60,829 nucleotides of DNA from an uncultured virus (IMG/VR IMGVR_UViG_3300033064_004648) (IMGVR_UViG_3300033064_004648:62001-122829), one strand, 5' to 3'; shown: positions 16,143-47,430, numbered from the stretch's first letter. Notes: generated by a model from the letters alone, not told the origin. A program made the numbers and translations.

Positions 16143-16237
16143 TTCTATTCCTCCAAGTACTCCATAAATTTAAAAAACGGGAAATAGTGGAGTTCTACTT
16201 ATCGGCTGGTCTATAAGTCCCAACCTATCCCGTTTTT
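16143..16237 (-). ncRNA. endonuclease-leader structured RNA, copy 1
   Basis: P1 AAAAACGGGA/UCCCGUUUUU; UAG; P2 GUUGG..CCAGC; GAU; P3 AAGUAG-AACUCCA-CUAUUU; loop pairs downstream UGGAGU next to the SD. Confidence 0.7.
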
Positions 16238-16276
16238 ACTGTATTAAAAACCACATAAAATACGAATTTTATTATG

Positions 16277-16525
16277 TTATTTTACCTTTAACTGTTTCTC
16301 AACTTCTTTAGCAATCTTCTCGCCCAATGTTTCCACTGGCTCAACAGGTGTTGGTTCTATTGATATCTCATAGTCCAATGGTGTTTTCTGTTTTTTGTTC
16401 CACTCAAGAAATTTACGAAAGTCCCTGTTTAGTGGTTCAAACGGAATAGACATATTACCTTTTTGAATTGACACTGGTTCGCCTGTAAAATCATAGTTTA
16501 TTTTATACATGTTATAGCTCCGCAT
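16277..16525 (-). CDS. tail fibre assembly/chaperone-like small protein
   Basis: SIPFEPLNRDF..FLEW motif typical of small proteins following fibres; overlaps the fibre stop. Confidence 0.65.
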   Translation of the reverse strand: MRSYNMYKINYDFTGEPVSIQKGNMSIPFEPLNRDFRKFLEWNKKQKTPLDYEISIEPTPVEPVETLGEKIAKEVEKQLKVK

Positions 16526-18524
16526 CTAAGTTTACCTGTCCATTCGGGGTCCACATGCAAGGTCTCTGGTTAGCTGCGACTGCCTGTGTTGTTAGGTCTA
16601 TATATCCTCCTTCAGAATCTGCATTCAAAGTTGCAACTGTAACATTGCGAAATTGTATTCCTGGGTCAACAACAGCATTTGCTCCTACAATCAATGTGCC
16701 AGTAGGTGTTATTCTCATAGATACTGGGAAAGGTCCAGAAACAGTTGCGCTTGTAGTACTGGTCGCCCACCATGAACCAAACCATTTCGGGAGAAATTGA
16801 AAATATCTTAGACATAAATCCTTTTCTGCCCCAATCGGTCTCGCCACAAAATCGGTACACGTTGCTCCTAATTCTAATTTCACCCATTGAATTTGCAGTA
16901 TGTCGTTAGCCGCAGCATCAGCGTCATCAACCCAAATAAATACACCAACGTTCTTTGTAGCCGCTGTATCAACCGCAATATTTTCAATCGTAAATGTTTG
17001 ATATGCGGCAGTTAGCAAATTGTCAGTAGCCACGTTTTCATAAGTCCAGTTAGCAACTAATGTTGGTACAGTTCCTTCTGCTTCCCATGCAGAAACCACA
17101 TCGCTTGTAACCGTGTCAGCCGCCCCGTCCCATGAAATAACCGCAGCCCTTACGTTCCTAATTGCAGCCCCGGTAGTCTTTGCCCTGAATGATAGTGAAA
17201 CAACCTGGTCTATTTGCGGACTGTCTTTGGTTTCAAGTATCTGTATAAAACCGAATTTCTTATTAGCCGTTGCTACAAGTGCCTGTATAGCAAACGGGTT
17301 TTCATCACTCGTTACTGCTAATTGCGAAACATCAACAATATCGTTACCATCTGACAATAATACCCACCTATCAAGCAAATAGGTATCATCACTATTTAAT
17401 GGAACAGTTGCTGCTGTGAACGCAGTTCCTCTTTGTGCTACTGCGAAACCAGGGTTGATTAGGGAGTTTTGATTTATAATTCTACTATCAATTTTGCTTC
17501 CACTAAGAACGTGTCCATAGGTGTCTACAATCACCGATGCGTAAGAACCTGCCGTGACAGCCGAGACATTATGTTTAGCAACAGAGCCAGAGGTATCGGA
17601 AAGTATTGCTGAGCCAGCAATAGTTGTTGCTCCCGCTACAACTTGACTCCCGCTAAGAACGTGTCCATAAGTATCCACGATCACCGAGCTATATGAACCT
17701 GCGGTGATTGCAGAGACATCATGTTTGACAACGGAGCCTGCTGTAGTTGTCATAATTGCAGAACCAGCGATCTCGATTAGCATCAAAGAACCAGCAGTCT
17801 CTATCGCTACGATTGAACCACTGTTCCAAACCACCTGTTCTTTTAGCAAAGAGCCAGCGGTCTCTATTGCTACAATTGACCCACTATTCCAAACAACTTG
17901 GTCATTTAACAAAGAGCCAGCGGTCTCAATTTCGACAATCGAACCTTGGATGTAGCCTATTAGACTTGAATTGGCTGAAATAGACCCGCTATTCCAGTCT
18001 ATGAGAGTATCTTGCGCCACATCATAGGATGCAACTTCGCTTCCACTAAGGACGTGCCCGTAAATATCGACAATTACCGAAGCATAAGAACCTGCTGTTA
18101 CAGCCGAGACATCATGTTTAACTACGGAACCAGTTGTTGTTGTCATGATCGCAGAACCGGCGATAGATGATAAATCTCCCGTCCCCGTTGTACTTCCATC
18201 TATAACATGTCCGTAGGCGTCAACAATAACTGCACTATAAGAACCCGCTGTGATTGCCGAGACATCGTGTTTGACAACTGAACCAGTGGTTGTTGTCATG
18301 ATTGCCGAGCCAGCGATTGGGTTTGCAATAAAGGTATCTATCTGGGCATGAGTATTTGTGCCTATGCTAGTTAGGTTTGTATGATCTACTGCACTACCGC
18401 TATCTGAATCAGTATGGTCGTGTATATTGGTTCCTACATGTGCGGCATTCCAATCAGAAGGACGAACATTAGCAGGATTTGCGGTATCAGCAACGCCAGA
18501 CACTTTCGAGTGTTTTGTACTCAT
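16512..18524 (-). CDS. tail fibre protein with repeats and a C-terminal receptor-binding region
   Basis: Four ~42-aa repeats (IAGSAIM.TT.GSV.KHDVSA.TAGSY.SVIVD.YGHV.SGS); N.LINPGF.VAQRGT...DRW; KLELG...T.F..RP...E..LC.RYF. Confidence 0.8.
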   Translation of the reverse strand: MSTKHSKVSGVADTANPANVRPSDWNAAHVGTNIHDHTDSDSGSAVDHTNLTSIGTNTHAQIDTFIANPIAGSAIMTTTTGSVVKHDVSAITAGSYSAVIVDAYGHVIDGSTTGTGDLSSIAGSAIMTTTTGSVVKHDVSAVTAGSYASVIVDIYGHVLSGSEVASYDVAQDTLIDWNSGSISANSSLIGYIQGSIVEIETAGSLLNDQVVWNSGSIVAIETAGSLLKEQVVWNSGSIVAIETAGSLMLIEIAGSAIMTTTAGSVVKHDVSAITAGSYSSVIVDTYGHVLSGSQVVAGATTIAGSAILSDTSGSVAKHNVSAVTAGSYASVIVDTYGHVLSGSKIDSRIINQNSLINPGFAVAQRGTAFTAATVPLNSDDTYLLDRWVLLSDGNDIVDVSQLAVTSDENPFAIQALVATANKKFGFIQILETKDSPQIDQVVSLSFRAKTTGAAIRNVRAAVISWDGAADTVTSDVVSAWEAEGTVPTLVANWTYENVATDNLLTAAYQTFTIENIAVDTAATKNVGVFIWVDDADAAANDILQIQWVKLELGATCTDFVARPIGAEKDLCLRYFQFLPKWFGSWWATSTTSATVSGPFPVSMRITPTGTLIVGANAVVDPGIQFRNVTVATLNADSEGGYIDLTTQAVAANQRPCMWTPNGQVNLDAEL

Positions 18525-18580
18525 ACTTAGTCCTCCTTATCGTTATATTTAAAATTAATTTATAAATGCATTTGTTCTTA

Positions 18581-19378
18581 CTATCCGCCAACAGCTCTTG
18601 CAAAACTATAAGTAAATTCAACAAAAGATATTGCACTTGTTATATGTAATGAATTTAAACCAGGTAAAAATCTTAACCAATTTTTATTGAAATATGAAAG
18701 ACGATAAAGACCAGTTGTTGAAGAAATTATTTGAAGGCTATTATCTACAGTAATACCTTCATCTGCACTTAGTCCTGTAAAAATAAATTCTCTACCATCA
18801 TCAGTTGTATTTGTAAATGTAAAATCTGCGCCCAGAGAATTGAGTGTAAATTCAATTGTTGGATAGAGATAATTGTTGTTGTCACTATCATTATAAAATG
18901 TAAAATCGAAGTCTTGTACTGCATCAGGCGAAAAATCATAAGAAAAAGATTGATCTTCTGTATGACCCCACGGAGCGTCACAAACTGCCCTTAAATCCAT
19001 CCCTACGGGTTTATTACCAACATAAATAGTCTCAGAACCAGTGAATATTACATTGAAATATATGCCCTGCATATCGTCTTGACATATGATTAATTTTTTA
19101 TAACCAGATTTACCAAGAAGCCATTTAGACATATTCCGTATATCTATAGACGATACAAAATTGTTGTAGCCTATTTTAAAAGTGAATTCTAGCGGGATGC
19201 TCTGACTGTTCCCAAAATGATAGGGGACAGTTCGACGATATGGCCACTTTTGATTAATTGTTGTTGCGTTACCCGAAGAAGACCTACTTGTCCCGGAGGT
19301 ACGCTCAAAATTAATTATTTGTACGCTGTAATTTTCTGAGGGAATTCCTCCGTAAATGAAGTTCGCGCCAAAAAACAT
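18581..19378 (-). CDS. distal tail protein (Dit)
   Basis: Follows the tape measure; F.Y.GI.SENY, WL.G..GYKKL, CDAPW, YLYPTIE, FNKNWLRFLPG.N.L.I. Confidence 0.8.
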   Translation of the reverse strand: MFFGANFIYGGIPSENYSVQIINFERTSGTSRSSSGNATTINQKWPYRRTVPYHFGNSQSIPLEFTFKIGYNNFVSSIDIRNMSKWLLGKSGYKKLIICQDDMQGIYFNVIFTGSETIYVGNKPVGMDLRAVCDAPWGHTEDQSFSYDFSPDAVQDFDFTFYNDSDNNNYLYPTIEFTLNSLGADFTFTNTTDDGREFIFTGLSADEGITVDNSLQIISSTTGLYRLSYFNKNWLRFLPGLNSLHITSAISFVEFTYSFARAVGG

Positions 19379-20137
19379 TTAGTCCTCCTTTGATAAATCA
19401 TAAATATCATCATATTCATGATTTTTTACTCTATAAACCGTACGAACACTAACATTAAGAGTTTTTGATATATTTATTGCCGAAATATTTTTGTCAAGCA
19501 TACACAAAATATCTATAACTATTTCTTTTTTTATAGATTTAGACCGACGCATTTTTAAAATAGATTCTGCTGTATGTTGTCTATTATAAAAAGGAGCATC
19601 TTTTCCCCTAACGCCCCACATAGGATTATTTTTACCTTTGAGATCTCTAGTCTTCCAATTTCTTTTTGGTAAATTATCATAAATATTATCATATCCGCCC
19701 TTTTTAATCTTGCCAATAGTATTCTTGCAAATACCCGTTTTCTTAGAAATCTCTTTCTGTGACATTTCTTTTGGCATTTTCAGTATTTTTAATACCATCT
19801 CTTCTTTTATAAGTTTAGGTTGACTTTTACATATTTTTGTTCTAGAAATCGATGGGTGATGATACCCGTAAGTACCTTCTCCTCCGCAACAAATATTATA
19901 CCCAATTTTACGATCTGTTGAACTATATTTTTTTATCCAATATATTTCTCTCTCACATAAATAATCATGGTCAGTTATTCCATCTTCTAATGTTTCTCTA
20001 GTAAAATTTTTTTTACCATATTTTTTAATAGCTTTTTTTAAATTTTTTCCTGAACCCAAATAAGATTTTTGATTCCCACAATACTTTCCTATATAAATCA
20101 TTCCATTGATTTTATTTGTTGTCTTATAAATAATCAT
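19379..20137 (-). CDS. GIY-YIG (Seg-like) homing endonuclease with two HTH modules
   Basis: IIYKTTNKINGMIYIGK, YLGSG, KYGK.NF, EREIYWI, GYNI..GG. Confidence 0.9.
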   Translation of the reverse strand: MIIYKTTNKINGMIYIGKYCGNQKSYLGSGKNLKKAIKKYGKKNFTRETLEDGITDHDYLCEREIYWIKKYSSTDRKIGYNICCGGEGTYGYHHPSISRTKICKSQPKLIKEEMVLKILKMPKEMSQKEISKKTGICKNTIGKIKKGGYDNIYDNLPKRNWKTRDLKGKNNPMWGVRGKDAPFYNRQHTAESILKMRRSKSIKKEIVIDILCMLDKNISAINISKTLNVSVRTVYRVKNHEYDDIYDLSKED

Positions 20138-20228
20138 CTATTCCTCCATATCTCCATAAACTTTAAAAATGGGAAATAGTGGAGTTCTACTTATCAGTTT
20201 AAGAGCGACCTAAACCTATCCCATTTTT
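20138..20228 (-). ncRNA. endonuclease-leader structured RNA, copy 2
   Basis: P1 AAAAAUGGGA/UCCCAUUUUU (compensatory change versus copy 1); P2 GUUUAGG/CUUAAAC; P3 identical to copy 1; downstream UGGAGA and UGGAGG. Confidence 0.7.
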
Positions 20229-20250
20229 ATCATACTTAATATTCTTTTTA

Positions 20251-20282
20251 AAACCACATAAAACTATAATTTTATTTGGTTT
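20251..20282. promoter_or_regulatory. 13-6-13 palindromic site (representative of ~6 copies)
   Basis: AAACCACATAAAA-CTATAA-TTTTATTTGGTTT; related copies at 571-602, 1021-1052, 9151-9182, 16248-16279, 33573-33604. Confidence 0.65.
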
Positions 20283-23200
20283 CTAAAGAGAAAAATCTTT
20301 AGCATTACGCGAGACTCCTCTTTTTGTAATTGCTTGATATACTGCCTTGGTTATGTTTTCTTTTAATTCTGGCATAACATTTTTATCAACATTGCCTTCT
20401 ATTGTTATACTTACAGGAACATTTGTTTCGCCAGATTTATTTGCAAGAGACAAAAGACCTGGTAACGTATTTCTAATAAAATTATAAGCTTGATTTTCTG
20501 TAACTATAACTTCTTCTTTCAATACATTTGCAAGAACTTCATTTTCTTTCGTTGATGAAGTTGTCGACAAGTCTCTTCCAACAATACCGCCATCATGATA
20601 TTTGGGAAGTTCGCTGTACTTATCAAGAGAAATATAAGTACCTGTAATTTTATTTTGATACATTTCTCTATTGTTATACCATCTTCTTTGATAGTCTGAT
20701 TGTTTTCCCGTAAGGTCGGCAGAAGCGGCAGCCATGGCATTGGCGGCAGCAGAACCATAACTATTTGCCGAATTAGTTGCATTATTCCATTTTTGCGCAA
20801 GATCATCTATGCCTGACCCATACTGTCTATTCCATTCCATCAAATTATTATAAAATTCTTGATTTCTACTTTCTAATAATGAAATAGCTTCTGCGCGAAT
20901 AGCCCCTTCTCTTTTTAAATAATCATCAAGAGCATCGATTTTCTTACTTAATTGATCTTCATATCTATCATACTCTTCATCCAATGCATCTTTTTGAATA
21001 TCTACACTTCTATCGGCCTGAAATTGATCTATTTCAGTGATTTTCTTAGCTTTTTCATCTTCAAGTTCAAGTCGACGTCTTTTAGCTTCATCACTATTAT
21101 CAAATTGTATTTGTAATAATTCATTTTCAATATCAGATAAATCTTCATTCTTTTCAGCAAGTTCATCCTGATATTTATCTTCTTCTTGCATTTGATCGAG
21201 TATTTTTTTCTTTGCATCTATAATTTTTTTATAACCATCAAGTTGTGCTTTTAATGCATCTTTTTGATCGTTTGCTTGTTGTTTAAGCATTGAAATAGTG
21301 TCTTTGAGAAGATCATTATAAGTTTTTTGGGCATCACTAACGCCACTAACTCCAGCAGATACTTTTGGCAACCAAAACGACGTACTTTTAACTTGTGTTA
21401 AATACCCCTTAGCTAACGCCAACATTCTTTGTAGTGCAACATTTTCAGTATCAAGAGCAAGTGCATGTTCCGCCGCTTTAAATGCCGCTTGTGCTTTTTC
21501 TACAACCAATGCTTTTAATGCTTGAATATTTAGATAAACCAATCCAGTTGTTTGATCAATCATCATGGCTTCTTGGTATTCTAATGGGAACATTGTTTGA
21601 AGCGACTGAGCCTGTTCTATGGTCATGCCATTAAGTTCATCGTAGCCATTTATAAGATCACGAACCGCAGTTGCATTTTGATAAATAGCATCCATATGAG
21701 CAAGAAGTGATTCGGGGCTTGCAGCCTGTTCCATTTCTTCGCCAATATTTGCGGCAGCTATGGCTAAATCATTTGCATATAGTAAAACTTCTGTTAATAA
21801 AGTTTTTCCGTCTTCGGCAGAATCTATAATCATTTGCATAAAAGCATTGGATGCAACTTCGCCTTCTTTTTGAGCAACCATGTATAATTCTGTAAGCATT
21901 TGTATAGTTTCAGTTTTTATATTTTGTTGTTCTTTTAATTGAGACTGTAAATCTTTTTCATATCCGGTTTGAAAATCGCCTTGATATGCTCTACTTTTAC
22001 CGAATTCTCCGGCAATTTCAATTGAACCAACTAGTTTTACTTCTTTTTTAGTAGCTAAATTATATGCTTCAATAGATAACTGAGCTTGTCTTTCTTTATC
22101 TAATACTAATTGATCTTTTGCCAACTGAATTTCTATCATTCTTTGCTTGTTTAATTCGGTTAAATTAATTCCAGCCGTTAAAATAAAGTTGCCTTGTTCG
22201 TCATAGAATCCAGAAATGTTTGGCATTAATGCTTTTAATTCATTTTGTAAATCATAAAATCTTTGTTGTTCTTCATTATTTCTATTAGTATTATTTCTTA
22301 AATTTTCAAATTCATCACTTAGTTCTTCAACTCTTTTGATGATACCACTCAAACCAGAAATAGTTGATTCTGTTGCCGATATTGATTTATTAACTTCATT
22401 TATACTATCAACATTCTTTTGAATTGTTCTATCTAATGATCCAGACAAATAGATTAATCCACCTATCGCGGCAGTTATAGCAACAATTGCAAGCGCATAT
22501 GGATTCCAAAGAGCTGCCCCCAACGCCCCAGCTTTTGTTAAACCTCCCGCTAATCCCGACAAGTTGGCGGCAAAAGACGCTTTAGGAATAGTTGATAAAA
22601 GTGCAATAACTACAGTTAAGACAGGAATAAGTCCCCCCATAGCCGCAATTAGATTATATATGCCAGTCGTTGCATTTATACTCCATTTTACTAAACCAGA
22701 ACTAATAGTAGTCTGCCACATTCTTTCTAAAGCAGCGGCATTTTTATTGGCAGTAGCCTCTATGCTTCCAAGATATATTTCGTATCTTTGTAATGCCAAT
22801 CCTGCCGAATTTAATTCTACTGCCTGTGCTATCAAAACTTCGTTATAATTATTCATTAAAACTAAGAAGTTTTCTCTTTGGCGAATACCGGCAATAGTAG
22901 TTGCAAGAGCACTTTGTTCTGTAGTACTCAAAGTAGACCATTTTGAGGATATCTCGTCTAGTACATCTCCCATAGGTCTAAATGTATCACTTGTTTCTCT
23001 AAGTGTTATATCTACTAATGATAAAGCTTTTTCAACATCGTTTATATTGGTTGCTTCATCTTCAAACATTTTTCCTAATTTGATGTTTTGCATTCTCGCA
23101 AACATAGTTCGAAGGGATGTGCCAATAGATTCTCCCGATTGTCTTGTTATTGAACTGATAACTGTGATATATGATGCTAATTCATCAAAACTAACTCCCG

Positions 23201-24101: not shown

Positions 24102-24141
24102 AGTTAGCCTGCCTCCTTTTATAAAGAATTAGTATTGATAT

Positions 24142-25161: not shown

Positions 25162-25175
25162 TAAACAATCTCCTT

Positions 25176-25634
25176 TTATATAATCCCCGCCTCAATGAAA
25201 TAGCATAATCCCACCGCAAAACTATCGCTTTGGTCGTCGTTTTCAAATGACACACTATATTTTTTTTCAATAATTCCCCGTAATTCAGCCTTCTTCATGT
25301 GTCCGTGTCCACCTACTATTTTTTTTATTGTTGCTGGCGAATAATATATCGTTTTACAGTCATGAAATATATAATTTGCTACACCTATTGTTTTAAACAA
25401 GGCTTGTGTTGAATTATTGTATCTGGTGAAACCCCTTTCAAAAACCGCTACATCAATATCATATTGATGTCGTAGATCCGATAAAACATCTGCAATAATT
25501 TTTAGCCTTTCACCATGTGAATTTTTACTTTTTGTAGCTATACTGCCTATTTTTAAAGGATTTCCTTTCGTATCAAAAACACAATATCCTGTATTTGACA
25601 AACTTGTATCTAATGATATTACATATTTTTCCAT
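25176..25634 (-). CDS. ruvC: Holliday junction resolvase, RuvC-like
   Basis: ISLDTSLSNTGY, AVFE, P.TIKK.VGGHG...K, DD.SD.FAV. Confidence 0.85.
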   Translation of the reverse strand: MEKYVISLDTSLSNTGYCVFDTKGNPLKIGSIATKSKNSHGERLKIIADVLSDLRHQYDIDVAVFERGFTRYNNSTQALFKTIGVANYIFHDCKTIYYSPATIKKIVGGHGHMKKAELRGIIEKKYSVSFENDDQSDSFAVGLCYFIEAGII

Positions 25635-25769
25635 AAAATCCCTCTTTTATTGTGTTTTGTCATAAGTTTTACACATTGATAAAATGCAAAAAAAAGAGGA
25701 CACCTAAATAATTTAAGTATCCTCCAATTTTTTTGTTTTTATTGAATTTATTTATTGGGCGATACGAAA

Positions 25770-26027: not shown

Positions 26028-26051
26028 TTTTAAATCTCCTTTTTATTTTAA

Positions 26052-26552: not shown

Positions 26553-26749
26553 TCCATATAGTTAACCCTTTTATGTTTTTTTTTAGCTCCAGTATATTTT
26601 AAATATTCACATATTTCACATTCTATAAACTGTTCAATATATGCGAATCCCTTTTTTTCAGTTGTATAACCAACTATATTTAAACTTGCCCCACACTCAG
26701 GACATTTTTTATGTAGTCTTTTTTGAATACGTCTTTTTTTGTATGACAT
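26549..26749 (-). CDS. small Zn-ribbon protein
   Basis: CPECG...CEICEY. Confidence 0.6.
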   Translation of the reverse strand: MSYKKRRIQKRLHKKCPECGASLNIVGYTTEKKGFAYIEQFIECEICEYLKYTGAKKKHKRVNYMD

Positions 26750-31824: not shown

Positions 31825-32697
31825 TCAATCATCATAAAAACCATTTCGAATTTTATAAACAGTGGCTATATTGATACCAAGTTCTCTAGCAATCTTTGGG
31901 CCAGATATTTTTTTCTTCAATAATTTTTTTGTTTGCAAAATTGTTTCCTTTTTCAAGGCATTAGATTTAACCCATTTTCGACTTGGCAAACTATATATTT
32001 CATTATAAAAACCTCTACTGGCCCTACTCACAACGCTCTTGCTGATTTTTAAATTTTCAGCAATTTCTTTTTGGGATAGCCCTTTATCAAGATATTTTAT
32101 AATTCTTAATATAATTTCTTTTTTAAAAATTTTAGACATTCTCATTTTCTTTTTTGTTTCTAGGGAAGGTGTTTTTCCATACATGCCATTTAACTTGCCA
32201 CATAGTCTGACTCCCCACATCGGATTGTTTTCATTTTTATGTGCCTTAGACATTTTTTCAATTGTTTCTGGAGAATGTGTTCTGCCATAATTTGGATTAT
32301 CTTTTCCTAGTTTTCCATAGTTAGGATTATTTTTGCCACTTTGAGCAGCACACATTTTCTTAATAGTTTCAGGAGAAAGTTTTATTCCCCTATTGCTTTC
32401 AACACACTCACGAATATTATAGGATAAGCCATGTGCTTTGTTTATATCACAAAATAATTGCTCATAATAAGTCAATTTTTCTGGTATACAATATATCAAT
32501 ATTTCAAAAATAAAATTTGTTTCTCCATGTTTATTAAAAGAACTTTGCAAATAAGGATTATGATGTTGATTTCTTCGTAAATCACCCAAATGGTCATTTT
32601 TCCTAGATTTTAAATGTATGCTCTGTCCAACATAGCACTTTCCATTTATAAGATTTCTAATTTGATATATTCCGCAATTAAAATCAGCTTTTTTCAT
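31825..32697 (-). CDS. GIY-YIG homing endonuclease, NUMOD3 repeats and two HTH modules
   Basis: [23 protein letters not shown]; paralogue of 15240..16142. Confidence 0.9.
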   Translation of the reverse strand: MKKADFNCGIYQIRNLINGKCYVGQSIHLKSRKNDHLGDLRRNQHHNPYLQSSFNKHGETNFIFEILIYCIPEKLTYYEQLFCDINKAHGLSYNIRECVESNRGIKLSPETIKKMCAAQSGKNNPNYGKLGKDNPNYGRTHSPETIEKMSKAHKNENNPMWGVRLCGKLNGMYGKTPSLETKKKMRMSKIFKKEIILRIIKYLDKGLSQKEIAENLKISKSVVSRASRGFYNEIYSLPSRKWVKSNALKKETILQTKKLLKKKISGPKIARELGINIATVYKIRNGFYDD

Positions 32698-32782
32698 TTT
32701 TTCCTCAACCTCTAAGATAAGAGATAAGAATGGGGAGGTTTCCCTTTCATTTCAGTAATTAATTGAAACTATCTTATCTCTT
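32698..32782 (-). ncRNA. endonuclease-leader structured RNA, copy 3
   Basis: P1 AAGAGAUAAGA/UCUUAUCUCUU; UAG; P2 UUUCA/UGAAA; P3 GGG-AAACCUC-CCC; loop AACCUC pairs downstream GAGGUU. Confidence 0.65.
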
Positions 32783-34399: not shown

Positions 34400-35443
34400 T
34401 TATTGATCTTTAATTTTACCTGATTTAATTTTTTCTAAAAATTCATACCACATTTCGGGAGTTGTATCTCCATACCCATAAATATTATGAAATTTCATAT
34501 GCCAATCACGAGTCAAACATGCTCCAAGAGGATATCTCATATGAAGTTCTCTTAATTTTTTTAGAAGTAATTTTAAATCATCTTTTTTATAATCACCAGC
34601 ATTTTCTTTTAATTCAAAATTCAATTCTTTTATAGATTCTTTAAATATTGAGTTGAAAGAATATACATGATGTATATCATCATATTTTTCTCCGCTAATA
34701 ACGCATTTTCCACCACATTGTTTTATAGATTCTTTTTTCCAGCGAGTTATTCTATTTTGCAAATAATCTCTAATATTTGTTAGTCCTCCCCGCCAATTAC
34801 TTGCATTAACTCCACTTATTCTCTCTATTAAGTCTATTCTTGAACAAACAAAACATTTATGCCACTTTAAAAAACTACTAAATGCCACATAATTAATATG
34901 ATTATAATTACAAGTATATTTTATTTTAGAGTTTCTATTGATATACTCATCAGGAAAATCTATAAAGATTAGATTGTTGTCTTCCATTATCTTATTTATT
35001 CTTTCCATGGAATATTTTCTAGAAACTTTTGATTTTTCTAATCCACATATCCTACATCTTCTTCCTCTTTTAAAAGACTCAAAGTTTGTCTTTTTGCCGA
35101 TATGACTACATTCAAATTGTATTATCAATGGTATTTTGCTATTTTTATATTCGATTGAAAGCAATTTGCAATTTTTTAATTTAATATATTCTTTTACATC
35201 TTCAAATTTAAAACTATATTTCTCACTAAATATACGATTTCGACATTCTGTACATCCATTACCGCTCCATACAGACCAAGTATCAGCATTCCATTTGTTA
35301 CCACATATTTTACATTCAAATAAACTTTTTCCGTGAGATCCTTTAAATTCTAGTAAGGCAATTTTATCTCCATGGGTATCAAAAGTTCTTTTTATTGCAA
35401 CTTCATTTGTAATTGTATCTTTTCTTTTATAGTAGTCTCTCAA
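34400..35443 (-). CDS. HNH endonuclease with repeated Zn-binding modules
   Basis: Multiple CxxC motifs; C-terminal CVISG...IHH..SF...GACL...H..FH..YG; likely start is the TTG at 35443 after AAGGAGG. Confidence 0.8.
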   Translation of the reverse strand: MRDYYKRKDTITNEVAIKRTFDTHGDKIALLEFKGSHGKSLFECKICGNKWNADTWSVWSGNGCTECRNRIFSEKYSFKFEDVKEYIKLKNCKLLSIEYKNSKIPLIIQFECSHIGKKTNFESFKRGRRCRICGLEKSKVSRKYSMERINKIMEDNNLIFIDFPDEYINRNSKIKYTCNYNHINYVAFSSFLKWHKCFVCSRIDLIERISGVNASNWRGGLTNIRDYLQNRITRWKKESIKQCGGKCVISGEKYDDIHHVYSFNSIFKESIKELNFELKENAGDYKKDDLKLLLKKLRELHMRYPLGACLTRDWHMKFHNIYGYGDTTPEMWYEFLEKIKSGKIKDQ

Positions 35444-35546
35444 TTCATCCTCCTTTAGATGATTATTTAATATTAATAGGTAGAAAGACAACTAAGGAAA
35501 GTTATCTTTATCGGTAAGTTAGCAAAATTCACCTATCTACCTATTA
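35444..35546 (-). ncRNA. endonuclease-leader structured RNA, copy 4
   Basis: P1 UAAUAGGUAGA/UCUACCUAUUA; UAGG..CCGAU; P3 AAAGAUAAC-UUUCCUUA-GUUGUCUUU; loop complementary to AAGGAG. Confidence 0.68.
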
Positions 35547-35550
35547 TTAT

Positions 35551-35579
35551 ATTTTATCACATAATGTTATTCTTGTCAA
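35551..35579 (-). promoter_or_regulatory. sigma70-type promoter whose predicted start coincides with the leader RNA 5' end
   Basis: TTGACA-N17-TAAAAT with TG extension. Confidence 0.75.
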
Positions 35580-40832: not shown

Positions 40833-42425
40833 TTATTTTTTTCCACCTTTATCAATATTTGAAGCACTATCTTGTGTATCTGTTGATTTAATTTCACTAT
40901 CAGATTTCTGTGGTCTTCCATTATCTTTTCCACTAAGTTGTGCTCCTGGCGTTACTGGAGTCAAGTTATCAACAAATTTGTTTGCCCTTGCCTCATCAAG
41001 TTGTCGTTGAAAATTAAAAGGCGACATCCCAATGCTTGCGGCTATCTTTTGTGGTAAAACAATTCCTTGTCCTATCAACGCCATTTGGTCATTGAATCGC
41101 TGTTGGCGATTTAAGTAAAAATTGGTTCCTTCAAAATGAAATTTAAATTCAAAATGTTTAGTTTCTTTATTGACGTGATAATTTAAAAATTTCTCAAAAT
41201 CTGGATAAAGTGCAATCAACTGATTTTCATCAACATTAAGTGCTAATTGAGATTCAATTGCATTTTGTTTTACATCCGAAGTAAACAAAAGATTTGTATT
41301 TACTCCAGAGGACGCCAAAGTAGTTTTTATATAAGAACTATATAGTTCATTATCGGATTCAAAATCTATTCCTTTTATATTTGTCAATGGTACAGCGGCA
41401 GTTTTTATAGCAGACCCAATTGCAGCTTTCACTAAAGCTAGAAATTGTCCCAAGTTTTTGGCAGAAATACCAAACTGATCTTTAGTTGAAGCTTGCGTAG
41501 TTTTATTTAATAAGGGGATTTCTCCAATTATTAATTTTGCCGCCTCAGCCATATTTACGCTTTTTTGTAATGCCCTCATTGTAGGCTGTTGAATTAGATC
41601 TAAAAATAGTCCAGTATATAATGGCAGTCTTGTTGCCATAGATACATTCATTTTCCACGCCCATCCTTCTTCGGGCGGAATATCTTGCCAATCCATATAA
41701 GAACTACGTCCGCGATAAATTGGATTGACGGGTGGATTGTATGAAGTTTGTAGTTTTCTCTCGTTATGTTTTCTCTTAAAAAATGGTGGATAAAAATCTA
41801 TATCAACACCTTGTTGCATAAACCAATTCATATTAAATGAAAATAATAACCCATAATCCCATCTTCCGGTTATTAATGTCCAATCGACCGAATTAGGCAA
41901 CTCTTGTAAAACATATTGATCGCCTTCAAGTCTTGGCGTACAGAAAAATGTATCATTTCTAATCATTTCTTGTACGGCAATTTTGAACTCTCTACGATAA
42001 TCAAATTTATCTAAAAATTCTTTTACTTTATCTAAGTCTTTTTTATATTTTGGGGTAGTATAATCTTTATATTTTGCATTTATGCAGTCATAAGTTAAAT
42101 CAAACGCCAATATGTTACTCTGATATTCCAAGAGGGTCTTGTACACCTGTGAATTAATTTCAAAATCTTGTGAAATCTGTTGTAATTTTAATTCACTGGT
42201 TTTCGGACTGTTTAAAGCTTTTATTAAATCTGCTTCTGTAGTTTGAAAAGGATTTAATGTAATGTCCTGCATTCTTGCATTTATCATTTGGGGAGATAAA
42301 TACTGTTGTCCTATTGGCCCCATAAGATTTTGGGCAAATTCTAGGACATACTTTGTATTTTCTTCAGATATAAGAATTTCTCCATCGGAGCCACTATCTT
42401 CCTGTATTTTTTCATTTTCTTTCAA
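40833..42425 (-). CDS. portal protein
   Basis: 530 aa after the terminase; LQELP..., F.FNM.WF, C-terminal GRPQK.DSE. Confidence 0.8.
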   Translation of the reverse strand: MKENEKIQEDSGSDGEILISEENTKYVLEFAQNLMGPIGQQYLSPQMINARMQDITLNPFQTTEADLIKALNSPKTSELKLQQISQDFEINSQVYKTLLEYQSNILAFDLTYDCINAKYKDYTTPKYKKDLDKVKEFLDKFDYRREFKIAVQEMIRNDTFFCTPRLEGDQYVLQELPNSVDWTLITGRWDYGLLFSFNMNWFMQQGVDIDFYPPFFKRKHNERKLQTSYNPPVNPIYRGRSSYMDWQDIPPEEGWAWKMNVSMATRLPLYTGLFLDLIQQPTMRALQKSVNMAEAAKLIIGEIPLLNKTTQASTKDQFGISAKNLGQFLALVKAAIGSAIKTAAVPLTNIKGIDFESDNELYSSYIKTTLASSGVNTNLLFTSDVKQNAIESQLALNVDENQLIALYPDFEKFLNYHVNKETKHFEFKFHFEGTNFYLNRQQRFNDQMALIGQGIVLPQKIAASIGMSPFNFQRQLDEARANKFVDNLTPVTPGAQLSGKDNGRPQKSDSEIKSTDTQDSASNIDKGGKK

Positions 42426-42437: not shown

Positions 42438-43586
42438 CTATGAGAAATTTTTATTTAAATTTAATTTTTTTTCTAAAATTGATTCTATATTGTTAAAATC
42501 CCAATATGGAATTGCTATTAATTTGATGTTATTTTTTTTACAGTAATCTTCTTTCATCTTATCTCTATATTTTTGTAACTCAAAAATTTCTTTACCTCCG
42601 AAAAACTCTATAGGTTCATAATGTTGTTTGCCATTATATTCTAATAAAAATTTTAATTTTTTACAGTCATTAAAAACCCCAAAATCATATTTTAACATAC
42701 GATTGTTTTTAGTTCTAAGATTATCAAAACTATATTGAAATATATAATTAGTATCATTATTTTTCAACCAATTATCAATACGACATTCACCACCGGACAT
42801 AATACAAAACCTACAGGCACTTCCATTGAACCTATTAAGACAACTCGATAAATATGATCTTCCACAAAAATTGCATATCCAATAAAATTTCTTTTTCGTA
42901 CCGTACACAACATCCGTTGGTTTTAAAGGATAATTTTTTGAATAATCCCATTCTAATGCCAAATCAGGTCTTAGGTATGCTAAATTATTTTTAGAAGAAA
43001 CTCTTTTCCCATTACGGTAAGGGCAACTTTGTCCTCCAAATATAACCATCCAACTAGAATTCCATGTACAACCACATTCTTTACAACGAAAAACGAGAGA
43101 ACTATCTATGGCGTTCTTAAAAACTCCTTCAACAAAACTAAAATCTTTATGTTGTTTTTCTATCCATAATTTAATATTATCTATAGTAAAAATGTTTGTG
43201 CCAGAAAACCGATCGGGAGTGCCTCCCTTTGAAAATGTTGCAAATGTGGTCACATATTTATACCCGTTTTTATCTATTAAATATATCTTTTTTGTATTTC
43301 CTTCGTACTGATCGTTCAACAATAAAAATTTTCTACCTTCAACAATACTTTTGACATATTTTAAACTATGTCTTCTTTTCAATCCATTTTTTGCAAAAGA
43401 ACATTTATTACAAAATACTTTTTTAATTTTTTTAAAATTCGGAAAAGTAATAAAATAAGATTCTCCACAATTCTTACATCTTAGTTCTATTTTTTCATTT
43501 GAATTTATATATACTTTACTTAATAACTTTACATCAAAACTTTCAACGTAATTTTTTACAAAATCATAAGACAATTTTTTACCCAT
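42438..43586 (-). CDS. Zn-ribbon plus PD-(D/E)xK (Vsr/DUF559-like) endonuclease
   Basis: CxxC repeats, PDLA.EWDYSKN, S.GE..I..WL, YDF, EYNG.QHY.P..FFGG, RD..K..YC; likely start is the ATG at 43586. Confidence 0.8.
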   Translation of the reverse strand: MGKKLSYDFVKNYVESFDVKLLSKVYINSNEKIELRCKNCGESYFITFPNFKKIKKVFCNKCSFAKNGLKRRHSLKYVKSIVEGRKFLLLNDQYEGNTKKIYLIDKNGYKYVTTFATFSKGGTPDRFSGTNIFTIDNIKLWIEKQHKDFSFVEGVFKNAIDSSLVFRCKECGCTWNSSWMVIFGGQSCPYRNGKRVSSKNNLAYLRPDLALEWDYSKNYPLKPTDVVYGTKKKFYWICNFCGRSYLSSCLNRFNGSACRFCIMSGGECRIDNWLKNNDTNYIFQYSFDNLRTKNNRMLKYDFGVFNDCKKLKFLLEYNGKQHYEPIEFFGGKEIFELQKYRDKMKEDYCKKNNIKLIAIPYWDFNNIESILEKKLNLNKNFS

Positions 43587-43711
43587 ATTCTTCAATATTC
43601 CTTTCACAATATTGTTTTTCGATTATATTAAAAATGGATGAAAATAGTCGAAAGCCTACTTTTTAATTATTATAAGAGTTGCAACTCTAATAAAAATCTA
43701 TTCATCCATTT
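43587..43711 (-). ncRNA. endonuclease-leader structured RNA, copy 5
   Basis: P1 AAAUGGAUGA/UCAUCCAUUU; long P2 (AGAGUU-GC-AACUCU); P3 AAAGUAG-GCUUUCGA-CUAUUUU; loop UUUCGA pairs downstream UCGAAA. Confidence 0.65.
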
Positions 43712-43720: not shown

Positions 43721-45538
43721 TTATACAGATTGTACTAAAGACATCATTTCTGCCGTTGAATCATAAGTATCTTCCTTAAGAAGTTCTTGATCTAATATTG
43801 AAGCATAATATGTCCCATATAATAAACTACTAAATCTATCTTTTCGACTTCCTGGTATTTCTGTTAGTTTAATGTTTCCTATACTCACAGACATTGATAA
43901 GTTAATACATTCATTAATAAGTAATGAAGTTTGTACGTATGGTGCTAAAAAAAAACTTTTTGCTGTTGGGTCATTTTGACTAAGAAATTCTTTTTTATAC
44001 GAGGACTTTATTAGATAATCGTCGGCAGACATTTCATCTACTAAGAAACTAAACATTCTTTTTTGAAGTTTATCCCTCATTTGTACCGCCATAATCGAAT
44101 TTAATTTAGCGGTTGCAGAAATAGGATATATGTTTTGTACCGCCCCTACTCCTAAAGTACGTTTAGATAATTCTTCATAATTATCATTGCTAATAGTTGC
44201 ATCTGGAATAATCGTCCATGCAGGCCATTCTGCCCCACTATCCGAATCAATAGTAATTTGACCTAGTTGATCATACATAGGAAGTCCACCACCACCAGTA
44301 CCAACATCTAATACTAATACATCGGCATCAAAAGCATAATATAATTGCTTAATTCTTGCGCTCTGCGAAATTGAATCTACGCCAGAGAAAGTCTCCATAT
44401 ATACCAAGTCTATTGTGTATCCCTTGCGAGTAGGGGATAGTCTTAAACAACTTGTTGCAGACAGGTCGTTGCTTTTGCCGGCTTTTTGAGCAACGTCACA
44501 AGATATAAGCCTTATTTCACCATCCTTTTTTTTGATAGCATAAGGATTTTTTTTAAAATTATATGTTTCCATTCTCTGAGGATAAAATGCCTTCTTTATT
44601 GTTCTCGCTCTATCAAACATCTTTAATTTAAAATAAGCATCAGAATTTTCGCCATATGGAATGTTAAAATATTCTTCTTGGGCTGTTATTTCGTCCATTT
44701 TAGATATTTCGTTTCTAATTTGCCTTGCTGTTTTAATATGATGTCTGATAGACACAGCAAAATCTATGGCGATAAATCCAGCATTGTCACCTTTCAACAT
44801 TGCTATAATATTCTTTTTTGTTTCGTCGAACCACCAAAGAAACTTCCTGTAGGCACTGGAGATAAAAATCTCTTTTGGTTCTTCTCCTAGGTGTTCATAT
44901 TTAGGATTTTTTAAATATGGGGCCTGTCTTATGTAAGCGAATGGTCTAATAACTGCATCTAAAACTTTCTTATCAATTAATCTGAATTCTTCGTATAAAA
45001 TAAAAGTAGCTCGCTTGCCTCTGCTTGAATCACGGCTAGCCACAATTTTTATTACACTTCCATTATAAAAATCCACTTGCCATTTGTTCATGTTCTCTGT
45101 AAGTTTTTTAATTTCTCTTGCAAGATTAGGATAATCGTTGCGAAGACTTGTAATTTTGTCACTAACAATAATTCCCGCTTGTTGTTTTGTGCTACTAACA
45201 ACAACTATTTCACTGTTTGGATATAAAACTGCTTTCGCACAAACAAAAACACCTACCAACCATGTTTTCCCTGTGGCACGACTACAAATTGCTACAAATG
45301 AATCACTAACATTCATAAGATAAACAAGCAGTATTTGATAAGGATGTAATTTTATACCGAAATAATGTTCAATAAATCTATGCATATTTCGACGATAAAA
45401 AGTTATCCAATCAATTAATTTATCTCTTCTTATCTTGCTCATATCGACTTCTCTTATGGTCGAAATGGGTTTTTTGAAAATATCTTGTCCTTCTGAATTT
45501 CTTTGTTTTTGGTTTTTAAAATTTTTATAAGAAGGCAT
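43721..45538 (-). CDS. terminase large subunit
   Basis: LHPYQ, Walker A SRATGKT, RGKRA, Walker B ILYEEFR, nuclease ISCDVA..ND, KDRFSS..Y. Confidence 0.9.
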   Translation of the reverse strand: MPSYKNFKNQKQRNSEGQDIFKKPISTIREVDMSKIRRDKLIDWITFYRRNMHRFIEHYFGIKLHPYQILLVYLMNVSDSFVAICSRATGKTWLVGVFVCAKAVLYPNSEIVVVSSTKQQAGIIVSDKITSLRNDYPNLAREIKKLTENMNKWQVDFYNGSVIKIVASRDSSRGKRATFILYEEFRLIDKKVLDAVIRPFAYIRQAPYLKNPKYEHLGEEPKEIFISSAYRKFLWWFDETKKNIIAMLKGDNAGFIAIDFAVSIRHHIKTARQIRNEISKMDEITAQEEYFNIPYGENSDAYFKLKMFDRARTIKKAFYPQRMETYNFKKNPYAIKKKDGEIRLISCDVAQKAGKSNDLSATSCLRLSPTRKGYTIDLVYMETFSGVDSISQSARIKQLYYAFDADVLVLDVGTGGGGLPMYDQLGQITIDSDSGAEWPAWTIIPDATISNDNYEELSKRTLGVGAVQNIYPISATAKLNSIMAVQMRDKLQKRMFSFLVDEMSADDYLIKSSYKKEFLSQNDPTAKSFFLAPYVQTSLLINECINLSMSVSIGNIKLTEIPGSRKDRFSSLLYGTYYASILDQELLKEDTYDSTAEMMSLVQSV

Positions 45539-46483: not shown

Positions 46484-46501
46484 AGAACCTCTTTTAAATT
46501 A

Positions 46502-46528
46502 AAAAAGACTATAAAAATATAGTCTTTT
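46502..46528 (-). terminator. intrinsic terminator-like hairpin
   Basis: AAAAAGACTATA-AAAA-TATAGTCTTTT. Confidence 0.6.
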
Positions 46529-46554
46529 GATAATGTGATAATTAGTTTTTTTAT

Positions 46555-47343
46555 TTAAATGTCGTAGATTTCGTTGTACCATCCGTTTTTGACTTTATAG
46601 ACGGTGGTTTTCCCAACATTCACCTCTTTTAATATTTTTGTTACGGATAAACCTTTACTTAATAATTTTGAAATATCTAAAATAACTTCTTTTTTTATAA
46701 GTTTCACTTCAGACATTTTTTCAAGTGTTTCTTCTGTATGGTGTTTCCCATACAGGGGGTTATTCACGCCCTTTTGTGCTTCGGACATTCTTTCAATTGT
46801 TTCTGGCGTGTGATGTCTTCCATACATAGGATGATTTTCCCCACCATTATCCCAATGATTTTCGGACATCTTCTTGCATGATTCTGGCGCGTGATGTCTT
46901 CCATAATTAGGGTTGTCTTTTCCTTTTTTCCCGTACATCGGATGATTTTCGCCACTAATATCCGCATGGTTTTCAGATATTTTTCTACACGTTTCTTCAG
47001 TCATAGGCGATCTATTTTTAGCGGATTCCGACATTTTCTCACGTGTTTCTGGCGTATGGATAAGCCCAGAAAAACCGCTTTTGCCACCCTCGCTAAGGTT
47101 ATATCCAACATCTGGATTAGTAGAATCATAGAATTCTATCCAATAAATTTCTCTCTCACATAAATAATCATGATCGGTGATGCCGTCTTCTAAAGTTATT
47201 CTGCTAAAATTTTCTTTACCGTATTTCTTGATCGCTCGCCCGACATATGTGCCAGATCCGAGATAAGTTAATTTGTTCTCGTTAACTAATTTCCCCACGT
47301 AAACTTTATTTTTTATATTATTAGTCGTCAAATATATTATCAT
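46555..47343 (-). CDS. GIY-YIG (Seg-like) homing endonuclease, NUMOD3 repeats and HTH
   Basis: IIYLTTNNIKNKVYVGK, YLGSG, EREIYWI; GENHPMYG repeats. Confidence 0.9.
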   Translation of the reverse strand: MIIYLTTNNIKNKVYVGKLVNENKLTYLGSGTYVGRAIKKYGKENFSRITLEDGITDHDYLCEREIYWIEFYDSTNPDVGYNLSEGGKSGFSGLIHTPETREKMSESAKNRSPMTEETCRKISENHADISGENHPMYGKKGKDNPNYGRHHAPESCKKMSENHWDNGGENHPMYGRHHTPETIERMSEAQKGVNNPLYGKHHTEETLEKMSEVKLIKKEVILDISKLLSKGLSVTKILKEVNVGKTTVYKVKNGWYNEIYDI

Positions 47344-47430
47344 TTCTCTCCATACTCCATTAAATAAAAAGAATGGGAAAAAGGAGTCTTTTTTATCGGG
47401 TCGGTGATCATTCCGTTCCTATCCCATTCT
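47344..47430 (-). ncRNA. endonuclease-leader structured RNA, copy 6
   Basis: P1 AGAAUGGGA/UCCCAUUCU; UAGG..CCGAU; P3 AAAAAG-ACUC-CUUUUU; downstream UGGAGU and UGGAGA. Confidence 0.68.

What the first reader, a model, noticed from the sequence alone, without database searches (positions are those of the whole stretch)
16143..47430. A conserved three-way-junction/pseudoknot RNA leads six endonuclease genes of three unrelated folds
Seen directly: the - strand leaders at 16143-16237, 20138-20228, 32698-32782, 35444-35546, 43587-43711 and 47344-47430 share one architecture. It has a 9-11 bp P1 stem, a UAG linker, a variable P2 hairpin, usually a GAU/UGA linker, a P3 hairpin, then the P1 3' arm (followed by a U-run in four copies), a short AU linker and the RBS. 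P1 sequences differ but stay paired (CGGG/CCCG, UGGG/CCCA, GAGAUAAG/CUUAUCUC, AGGUAG/CUACCU, UGGAUG/CAUCCA). The P3 loop covaries with a downstream segment: ACUCCA/UGGAGU, AACCUC/GAGGUU, UUUCGA/UCGAAA, UUCCUU/AAGGAG. In most copies that segment is, or is a tandem duplicate of, the Shine-Dalgarno sequence. The genes are four GIY-YIG, one HNH and one PD-(D/E)xK nuclease, so the RNA tracks 'free-standing nuclease in the morphogenesis operon', not a protein family. The five other free-standing nucleases abut an upstream gene and lack it. Established: T4 I-TevI-type homing endonucleases are repressed by simple RBS-sequestering hairpins. Inference: this is a more elaborate cis-acting RNA, such as a translational switch, attenuator, processing signal/ribozyme or nuclease-bound RNA, that may define an uncharacterised RNA-plus-nuclease mobile cassette.
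Basis: partly seen in the sequence, partly recalled or inferred. Interest (0 to 1): 0.9.

Follow-up and report, generated by a model that had tools for sequence, protein, structure and literature searches.

The report
Folded leader RNA before phage nucleases
Six selfish DNA-cutting-enzyme genes of this phage each begin with the same small three-armed folded RNA, a divergent form of a catalogued but untested RNA family, whose loop matches the gene's ribosome-binding site and so probably limits how much enzyme is made.

Summary
Five of the six leaders are clear copies of one RNA. A model built from c1, c2 and c6 alone finds c3 and c4 at E about 5e-8, and the next hit scores 16 bits. The sixth copy, c5, is a divergent probable copy (22.4 bits, E about 0.015). 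In 37 members from this and 32 other viral loci, all three helices covary (91-94% of cells paired against 70% in shuffles). The P3 loop matches two downstream boxes: a "decoy" about 8 nt after P1, and a second box over the ribosome-binding site. The two boxes use the same loop bases, so only one can pair at a time.

The motif precedes GIY-YIG, NUMOD4-HNH, DUF4379 and other nuclease genes. Nuclease-free alleles in related phages lack leader and gene together, so the leader is part of the mobile cassette.

It is not wholly new. It is a long-armed relative of Rfam int-alpA (RF02996), a candidate motif of untested function. The window's copies do not reach that model. True int-alpA RNAs show the same two-box design.

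The most likely function is a portable throttle or switch on translation. The trigger, if there is one, is unknown. This scan reached the same reading in eight earlier findings on other genomes.

The parts
16173..16237 (-). c1 leader core: P1a 16228-16237, UA, P2 16204-16225, GAUA, P3/L3 (AACUCCA 16188-16194), P1b 16173-16182
16159..16164 (-). c1 box1 (decoy) UGGAGU, complementary to L3
16151..16155 (-). c1 box2 UGGAG, which is the Shine-Dalgarno, 8 nt before ATG 16142
15240..16142 (-). c1 gene: GIY-YIG + NUMOD3 + HTH homing endonuclease, 300 aa
20165..20228 (-). c2 leader core (L3 AACUCCA 20180-20186)
20144..20156 (-). c2 box1 UGGAG (20152-20156) and box2 UGGAG, the SD (20144-20148)
19379..20137 (-). 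c2 gene: GIY-YIG-type homing endonuclease (PHROG 314/7168; weak Pfam SegE), 252 aa
32720..32781 (-). c3 leader core (L3 AACCUC 32735-32740; J2/3 GAA)
32703..32712 (-). c3 box1 GAGGUU (32707-32712) abutting box2 GAGG, the SD (32703-32706)
31825..32697 (-). c3 gene: GIY-YIG + NUMOD3 + HTH, 290 aa
35475..35545 (-). c4 leader core (long P3; L3 region AACUUUCCUUAGUU 35490-35503)
35450..35455 (-). c4 single box AAGGA(G), the SD itself; no decoy box found
35551..35579 (-). Consensus sigma-70 promoter (TTGACA-17-TG-TAAAAT) ending 5 nt before P1 of c4
34400..35443 (-). c4 gene (TTG start 35443): PHROG 681/559 endonuclease, CapR + weak DUF4379, 347 aa
43632..43711 (-). c5 leader core, divergent: J1/2 AUA, P2 34 nt (43665-43698), J2/3 A-run, L3 GCUUUCGA 43648-43655
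43601..43622 (-). c5 box1 UCGAAA (43617-43622) and box2 GAAAG (43601-43605), 14 nt before ATG 43586
   Evidence: read by eye
42438..43586 (-). c5 gene: DUF4379 zinc-ribbon nuclease-like protein (PHROG 559/9084), 382 aa; start supported by MGKK N-termini of relatives
47369..47431 (-). c6 leader core (L3 GACUC 47384-47388)
47348..47358 (-). c6 box1 GGAGU (47354-47358) and box2 GGAG, the SD (47348-47351)
46555..47343 (-). c6 gene: GIY-YIG-type (PHROG 314) + NUMOD3 + HTH, 262 aa

Best explanation
Each leader is an int-alpA-type structured 5' leader. It travels with a homing-endonuclease gene as one mobile cassette and acts in cis on the start of translation.

A three-way junction has a conserved core (5'-GA|UA|G...GAnAA|A...U|UC-3'). 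It holds out the P3 loop (L3), whose sequence is free to vary. L3 is complementary to two downstream sites. Box1 is a decoy about 8 nt after the P1 3' arm. Box2 lies over the Shine-Dalgarno/start region. The two pairings use the same loop bases, so the RNA is in one of two states. With L3:box2 the ribosome-binding site is closed. With L3:box1 it is free. The balance between the states sets a low level of nuclease synthesis, and something may shift that balance.

Shown here: the fold, the covariation, the two boxes and their positions, the linkage to the gene, and cassette co-mobility. Inferred: that box2 pairing blocks initiation, and that box1 competes with it. Unknown: whether any signal moves the balance.
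For: Fold:
- 94.1% of 478 cells are paired in 23 sequences, against 70.4% in shuffles (0 of 500 reach it) and at most 58.6% when partners are slid. 17 of 21 pairs change on both sides.
- In 39 rows the figures are 91.3% against 70.2%, with 19 of 21 pairs changing on both sides.
- Seven members came from a protein-based search that did not use the RNA.

Strand-specific RNA:
- The first P2 pair is G-U in 23 rows and G-C in 16.
- Antisense scores are far lower, for example 107 against 16 bits.

Two boxes:
- The mean best exact run is 6.41 and the mean second run 5.46. With loops permuted among members the means are 4.45 and 3.56 (maxima 4.95 and 4.11 in 300 permutations).
- 25 of 37 members have a second box of at least 5 nt, against a permuted mean of 5.0 and a maximum of 11.
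- 35 of 37 have two boxes of at least 5 and 4 nt. Box2 ends a median 5 nt before the start codon. 34 of 35 share at least 4 loop bases between the two boxes.
- Loop codes unrelated to the SD occur with matching boxes, for example UGCACCC, UGCCAAAC, CUCAGUG and UUCUCUGA.
- The same design is seen around true int-alpA RNAs: 30 of 65 pattern sites have a second box of at least 5 nt, against a permuted mean of 5.8.

Cis linkage: in 37 of 37 members an ORF of at least 165 aa starts 20-100 nt after P1.

Cassette: the c5 unit is absent in L397 and L398. The c6 unit is absent in L397 and present in L398. The flanks align on both sides.

Precedent: RBS-sequestering structures limit T4 homing endonucleases (PMC2988022, section 12 passages).
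Against: - No expression or probing data. No RNA run holds this phage.
- If box1 always wins, being closer and more stable by duplex energy in 19 of 35 members, the RBS would stay open and the RNA would not repress.
- c4 has only the RBS box, and L358 has no box.
- In some true int-alpA loci, for example L419, box2 lies about 20 nt upstream of the SD rather than on it.
- The strongly conserved junction and the self-complementary P2 loops are not needed by a plain occlusion model. They point to an extra partner or signal.
- The alignments used for pair counts were fitted to the model's structure.
Confidence: 0.55

Rival explanations
1. A signal-responsive switch, of riboswitch, protein-binding or thermosensor type. 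The conserved three-way-junction core would bind a ligand or factor that decides whether L3 reaches box1 (on) or box2 (off).
For: The junction letters are nearly invariant while the helices and L3 vary freely, across phages of 29-57% G+C. The layout of anti-RBS, RBS and anti-anti-RBS is the classic expression-platform logic.
Against: No match to any riboswitch class in Rfam. It is hard to see one metabolite signal that would suit homing endonucleases, satellite cargo genes and phages of very different hosts. The junction is small (2 + 4-5 + 0 nt). Part of the junction conservation was forced by my search patterns. The seven protein-derived members do keep UA and GAnAA.
Confidence: 0.15
2. A processed, stable small RNA of the P1/P7 c4 or P4 CI type. 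The tRNA-like three-way junction would be cut out of the transcript, for example by RNase P. Its loop would then act as an antisense repressor on the two boxes, in cis and perhaps in trans, giving self-limiting expression.
For: Rfam types int-alpA as 'Gene; sRNA'. The layout is tRNA-like: P1 followed by UA, and a 5-bp P3 with a loop of about 7 nt abutting the P1 3' arm. The model's next hit after c5 is the window's tRNA-Thr gene, at 19.9 bits. c4 is co-transcribed with its targets icd and ant and acts as an antisense RNA (PMC8198154, introduction passages). That c4 and CI each have two complementary target boxes and are processed by RNase P is my recollection, not a call.
Against: No hit to the Rfam C4 or tRNA models at the leaders, and ARAGORN finds only the true tRNA. 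An ACUCC loop acting in trans would match every Shine-Dalgarno in the cell. No member stands without a gene directly downstream. No RNA ends are available.
Confidence: 0.12
3. An mRNA insulator or stability element. A compact junction-plus-pseudoknot knot placed right after the upstream stop codon would shield the upstream late cistron from 3'-5' decay starting in the poorly translated nuclease gene, or would protect the 5' end of the nuclease mRNA. Box2 likeness would be secondary.
For: The cassette begins 0-14 nt after the upstream gene's stop codon at c3, c5 and c6. It sits between essential morphogenesis genes. At c4 a consensus promoter puts P1 at the very 5' end of the transcript.
Against: This does not explain why a second box matching L3 is kept exactly at the RBS, even when the code is unrelated to the SD. 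A plain hairpin would be enough.
Confidence: 0.08
4. A DNA-level element (operator, nuclease recognition site or recombination hairpin) or an intrinsic terminator, rather than an RNA regulator.
For: P2 carries 6-nt palindromes. P1 is flanked by A- and U-runs in c1, c2, c5 and c6.
Against: G-U pairs occur on one strand only and antisense model scores are much lower. Helix sequences change freely with compensation. The terminator scan finds nothing at the six sites. The U-run is missing in many members. A terminator between essential late genes would be harmful.
Confidence: 0.04

Closest known systems
int-alpA RNA motif, Rfam RF02996 (typed 'Gene; sRNA'; by my recollection one of the candidates of Weinberg et al. 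2017, PMC5737381, whose main text does not name it and whose supplement I could not read)
   Same: The architecture and junction letters are the same: P1, UA, P2, GAAAA, P3 with a variable loop, P1', a U-rich linker, then a box that matches the loop (consensus printed). One relative of the window's leaders (L284) scores 31.9 bits over the whole model. My model hits true int-alpA loci at 21-27 bits, full length. True int-alpA RNAs also end at a start codon and carry two loop-matching boxes. Some precede HNH or endonuclease VII genes.
   Different: The window's six copies give no RF02996 hit even at E<=10. P2 is 6-8 bp with an 8-10 nt loop that is often palindromic (c5: a 34-nt arm), where the consensus has a 4-bp stem with a tetraloop. 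There are no unpaired bases between P3 and P1', where the consensus has 'CU'. P1 is 10 bp against 8. The context is lytic-phage morphogenesis modules and homing endonucleases, not integrase/alpA neighbourhoods. The cis-regulatory two-box reading is not in any paper I could find.
RBS-sequestering hairpins of T4-type homing endonuclease genes (I-TevI, I-TevII, I-TevIII, segB, mobE)
   Same: Both are cis RNA structures that hide the ribosome-binding site of a selfish nuclease gene inside a phage operon (PMC2988022, passages of section 12).
   Different: Those are single local hairpins, relieved by a late promoter placed inside the hairpin. Here the RNA is a conserved three-way junction with a long-range loop pairing, a decoy site and a swappable code. 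A promoter directly upstream is not general (5 of 36 members).
P1/P7 c4 and P4 CI antisense RNAs
   Same: A small structured RNA is co-transcribed with its target, and its loop pairs with sites that control the downstream genes (c4: PMC8198154 passages). The two target boxes and tRNA-like processing are recalled from memory.
   Different: No sequence or model match. Here only one loop carries the code, both boxes lie downstream, and neither processing nor trans action has been shown.
Unnamed candidates in the IMG/VR catalogue of Fremin et al. 2023 (PMC10690425), e.g. DNAVirus_1290 and DNAVirus_8080
   Same: These are candidate structured RNAs within 25 bp upstream of GIY-YIG and HNH genes. They are 79-92 nt long and come from freshwater and other viromes (supplement tables).
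   Different: Identity is untested, because the files with their sequences could not be read here. The paper's main text does not discuss them.

Membership tests
Rfam RF02996 int-alpA | Score at or above the curated gathering threshold (35.8 bits) with the Rfam covariance model | tested here: not met
   No hit for any window copy at gathering or at E<=10. None in the whole genome. The relative L284 scores 31.9 bits, below the threshold.
Rfam RF02996 int-alpA | Three-way junction P1 - UA - P2 - GAnAA - P3 - P1' with covarying helices | tested here: met
   The consensus printed matches the members. Covariation is shown.
Rfam RF02996 int-alpA | P3 loop complementary to a box after a U-rich linker (the AgGG end of the consensus) | tested here: met
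   for the leaders. for true int-alpA loci.
Rfam RF02996 int-alpA | Recognition in the other direction: a model of the leaders finds true int-alpA RNAs | tested here: met
   R2 gives 18 hits at E<0.1 (21-34.5 bits) among 80 loci, all at the pattern site. 13 of the 20 loci tested pass Rfam's threshold. The scores are weak.
Rfam RF02996 int-alpA | Short P2 (4 bp plus a small loop) and two unpaired bases between P3 and P1' | tested here: not met
   The window copies have 6-8 bp P2 arms with 8-10 nt loops, c5 has a 34-nt arm, and P3 abuts P1'.
Rfam RF02996 int-alpA | Neighbourhood of integrase and alpA genes (from the family's name; the details are recalled) | not tested
   I looked only at the gene directly downstream. 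Here these are nuclease genes. For true int-alpA they were DUF6387, endonuclease VII, HNH, or no Pfam family in 9 of 13.
T4-type RBS-sequestering hairpin | A single local hairpin containing the SD, with a promoter inside it that yields an unrepressed transcript | tested here: not met
   The structure is a junction plus a long-range pairing. TATAAT-like boxes between box1 and box2 were seen by eye only in some long-spacer members.
Known riboswitch or ribozyme classes | Match to a curated model | tested here: not met
   The only related hit is int-alpA.
Intrinsic terminator | G+C-rich hairpin with a short loop followed by a U-run | tested here: not met
   No site at the six leaders. The U-run is absent in c3, c4, L026, L036 and L248.
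tRNA or tRNA-like element | Detected by tRNA models | tested here: inconclusive
   ARAGORN and the Rfam tRNA model find only tRNA-Thr at 48603-48675. The leader model does score that tRNA gene at 19.9 bits, E 0.054.

The most novel reading that the evidence does not exclude
The int-alpA class may be a portable, address-coded translation silencer. In that reading it is a self-contained RNA module whose loop/box 'code' can be rewritten at will, and which mobile genes carry with them (homing endonucleases, satellite cargo genes). It may be released as a small tRNA-like RNA that also acts in trans, as c4 and CI do. It may pair up through the self-complementary P2 loop. The result would be self-limiting expression, or expression that depends on copy number or co-infection.
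Probability: 0.15. Interest if true: 0.8.

Novelty: new variant of a known kind. Interest (0 to 1): 0.6.

Why it matters
Homing endonucleases are toxic passengers inside essential phage operons. Outside T4, little is known about how they are kept quiet.

This work adds three things. It gives an orphan Rfam motif a concrete, testable role and a clear anatomy: a conserved scaffold, a free code loop, a decoy site and an RBS site. It shows that the RNA moves together with the gene as one cassette. It shows that one scaffold serves at least four nuclease families, as well as unrelated cargo genes, in hosts with and without Shine-Dalgarno use.

If the two-state model holds, this is a compact natural part for tuning translation by base-pair code. 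It would also correct the family's 'sRNA' label.

Tried and rejected
- Megablast of 6 kb of the window against the phage records gave no match.
- Public runs: 8 DNA holders, and no RNA holder listed. Laying contigs of 4 runs on 14000-33999 showed no nuclease-free joint. The few joints have short sides and lie in repeated NUMOD3 modules.
- Relatives of the c4 protein: only the same phage in a 168-kb record. Relatives of the c5 protein: three weak loci (L070-L072) with no leader hit.
- A promoter directly 5' of P1 as a general feature is rejected. The median member is no better than random positions, and only 5 of 36 are at or below 0.05. Bacteroides-type TTTG/TAnnTTTG boxes before four members were seen by eye only.
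- A conserved mini-ORF starting at box1 (c1, c2, c6, L335) is rejected, because it is not present in most members.
- Hammerhead-like reading of the GAAA junction: no model hit.
- PDB sequence search for the c4 and c5 nuclease folds found only the zinc ribbon of c5.
- Searching five bacterial genomes and the 14 control genomes for RF02996 found nothing over the threshold.
- The pattern run on bacterial and archaeal genomes gave 0 of 80 fetched matches that fold as the motif. I used this as a negative control.
- Supplements of PMC5737381, and the sequence files of PMC10690425, could not be read.

Full report
**What the window is.** The window is the second half of a 122,829-bp IMG/VR virus record. 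Its - strand carries a siphovirus-type morphogenesis module: large terminase 43721-45538, portal 40833-42425, tape measure 20283-24101, Dit 18581-19378 and endolysin 8184-9077. Many nuclease genes are interspersed among them. A 168-kb record holds the same phage.

**The observation.** RNAfold gives the three-way junction as the best fold in 5 of 6 copies. Single-sequence z-scores are weak for four of them, so the case rests on comparison.

- A covariance model built only from c1, c2 and c6 was run unfiltered on both strands. It finds c4 (41.0 bits, E 4.6e-8) and c3 (40.6 bits, E 6.1e-8).
- The next hit scores 16.3 bits, and c5 gets only 12 bits.
- A second model from 23 members without c5 ranks c5 first among non-seeds (22.4 bits, E 0.015, full length).
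- c5 keeps P1, P3, the loop/box pairs and the position, but has a 34-nt P2 and altered linkers. I count it as a probable, divergent copy.
- The other 62 kb of the genome holds no copy.

**Relatives elsewhere.**
- A pattern of conserved letters found 61 viral loci, and 19 of them fold as the motif.
- The same pattern in bacterial and archaeal genomes gave 0 of 80 fetched matches that do.
- A protein-based search for GIY-YIG relatives, blind to the RNA, gave 80 loci. Seven carry the leader, always on the gene's strand and ending at its start codon.
- A second pattern that left the P3 loop free gave at least 115 matches. 80 were fetched and 78 searched, leaving out the two from the window's own phage. 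26 of the 78 hit.
- After removing duplicates, 37 sense members were aligned: 5 from the window and 32 loci.

**Structure.**
- On 23 sequences, 94.1% of cells pair, against 70.4% in shuffles (0 of 500 reach it) and at most 58.6% when partners are slid. 17 of 21 pairs change on both sides.
- On 39 rows, two of which are antisense echoes that I could not remove, the figures are 91.3% against 70.2%, with 19 of 21 pairs.
- These alignments are fitted to the model, which favours the structure. The slid controls and the many pair types argue that the signal is real.
- The first P2 pair is G-U in 23 rows and G-C in 16. Antisense scores are far lower. The signal therefore belongs to the transcribed strand.
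- Conserved letters sit at the junction: GA|UA|G at P1/P2, GAnAA before P3, and U|UC after it. My patterns forced part of this, but the protein-derived members and c3 keep UA and GA(n)AA.

**The pseudoknot, generalised.** Looking across members, I saw that the P3 loop (L3) matches not one but two downstream sites.

- In 37 members the mean best exact complementary run is 6.41 and the mean second, non-overlapping run is 5.46.
- With L3 shuffled the means are 3.91 and 3.10. With L3 permuted among members they are 4.45 and 3.56 (maxima 4.95 and 4.11 in 300 permutations).
- 25 of 37 have a second box of at least 5 nt, against a permuted mean of 5.0 and a maximum of 11.
- 35 of 37 have two boxes of at least 5 and 4 nt. 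Box1 starts a median 8 nt (3-20) after P1. Box2 ends a median 5 nt (-1 to 11) before the start codon.
- In 34 of 35 the two boxes use at least 4 of the same loop bases, so the pairings exclude each other.
- Duplex energy favours box1 in 19 members, box2 in 11, and neither in 5.
- Where the host uses Shine-Dalgarno sequences the code is ACUCC/GGAG-like. This explains the 'tandem SD'.
- Elsewhere the code is arbitrary, yet both boxes follow it: UGCACCC, UGCCAAAC, CUCAGUG, UUCUCUGA and CCUCGUAA.
- c4 has only the RBS box, and L358 has no box.

**Genes behind it.** Of the 37 members:
- 19 precede GIY-YIG genes. The motif was seen in the N-termini, and Pfam confirmed those tested.
- 6 precede NUMOD4 + HNH_3 genes.
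- 2 precede DUF4379 zinc-ribbon proteins, as does c5.
- 1 precedes a gene with the homing-endonuclease-associated HNH_repeat, and 1 a Myb-like protein.
- 3 match only PHROG nuclease families (c4, L018, L014).
- 5 have no family.

c4 and c5 are not unrelated to each other: they are 27% identical over about 139 aa. I could not confirm a PD-(D/E)xK fold.

**Cassette.** Phages with an 87%-identical portal have the terminase stop codon 22 nt from the portal start, with no c5 unit (L397, L398). L397 also lacks the c6 unit, while L398 has it with its leader. Alignments show the insert starting 0-14 nt after the upstream stop codon, at P1, and ending at the nuclease stop codon. After that the nuclease-free intergenic sequence resumes. 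Leader and gene therefore move as one unit.

**What it is related to.** The window gives no Rfam hit except a tRNA. One relative, L284, matches RF02996 int-alpA over the whole model at 31.9 bits, where the threshold is 35.8. The printed consensus has the same plan and junction letters, and it ends in a box that matches its loop.

- A pattern from that consensus fetched 80 viral loci. 13 of the 20 tested pass Rfam's threshold.
- My model hits 18 of the 80 at 21-34.5 bits.
- True int-alpA RNAs also stop at a start codon and show two loop-matching boxes: 30 of 65 pattern sites have a second box of at least 5 nt, against a permuted mean of 5.8.
- Their downstream genes include endonuclease VII, HNH and DUF6387, and 9 of 13 have no Pfam family.
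- The window's copies themselves do not reach RF02996 even at E<=10. They differ in P2 length and in the P3/P1 joint.

I file them as a long-armed variant of a known but functionally untested class, not as Rfam members.

**Literature.**
- Three full-text searches found no paper on such a leader.
- The 2017 survey's main text does not name int-alpA, and its supplement was unreadable.
- A 2023 catalogue lists unnamed candidates upstream of GIY-YIG and HNH genes that may overlap this motif.
- Eight earlier findings of this scan on other genomes reached the same reading. I read them after my own, and they agree.

**Mechanism.** The best-supported reading is a cis translation throttle or switch, as set out under the best explanation. 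The fold, the boxes, their positions and the linkage are shown. Occlusion and competition are inferred, by analogy with the T4 RBS hairpins.

Several things remain unexplained:
- why the junction is so conserved;
- what, if anything, shifts the balance between the two states;
- why the P2 apical loop is so often self-complementary. 19 of 34 distinct P2 arms have a 6-nt palindrome (shuffle mean 2.6, maximum 8). 28 of 34 have a 4-nt palindrome (shuffle mean 13.2, maximum 22). This hints at loop-loop dimers.

A promoter just upstream is not general, although c4 has a consensus one. The U-run is not conserved, and no terminator is predicted.

Noticed in passing
P2 apical loops, e.g. window 47405-47410 (c6 UGAUCA), 32756-32761 (c3 UAAUUA), 43679-43684 (c5 UUGCAA): The P2 loop is very often a self-complementary hexamer (UCAUGA, UAAUUA, UGAUCA, UAGCUA), with positions 2 and 5 covarying. 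19 of 34 distinct arms have a 6-nt palindrome, against a shuffle mean of 2.6. Possible causes are kissing-loop dimerisation or template-switch mutation. Unexplained.
   Followed up: partly
window 35551-35579 (-) and 34334-34362 (-): The two best sigma-70-like promoters of the region (11 of 12 matches, each with TG) bracket the c4 nuclease gene. One lies just before its leader and one just after its stop codon, ahead of the next phage gene.
   Followed up: partly
window 48573-48681 (-): The tRNA-Thr gene (48603-48675) is the leader model's next-best hit after c5 (19.9 bits). The leader's layout resembles a tRNA that lacks one arm.
   Followed up: partly
L335:1282-1312 (+): A perfect 13-nt direct repeat, AAUGGGUGCAGAA, provides box1 and box2. 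The first copy opens a 6-codon mini-ORF whose stop codon overlaps the next AUG. Similar mini-ORFs occur in c1, c2 and c6, but they are not general.
   Followed up: partly
L255, L343, L014, L018, L055, L311 (spacer between box1 and box2): In members with a 22-56 nt spacer between the boxes, TATAAT-like hexamers lie a few bases before box2. This recalls the internal late promoter of T4 I-TevI. Seen by eye only.
   Followed up: no
window 24142-25634 (-): An integrase-like ORF (PHROG 1) and a RuvC-like resolvase ORF sit inside the tail/head module, next to the tape-measure gene.
   Followed up: no
window 46490-46540 (-) and L397:385-425: A hairpin followed by a T-run (AGACTATA...TATAGTC TTTTTT) before the next gene's RBS is kept in both the nuclease-free and the nuclease-bearing allele, just outside the c6 cassette.
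   Followed up: no
L399:2140-3069 and L400:3510-4439: More distant relatives (portal 77% identical) carry a different 309-aa ORF of no known family between terminase and portal. It starts 36 nt after the terminase stop codon and has no leader.
   Followed up: partly
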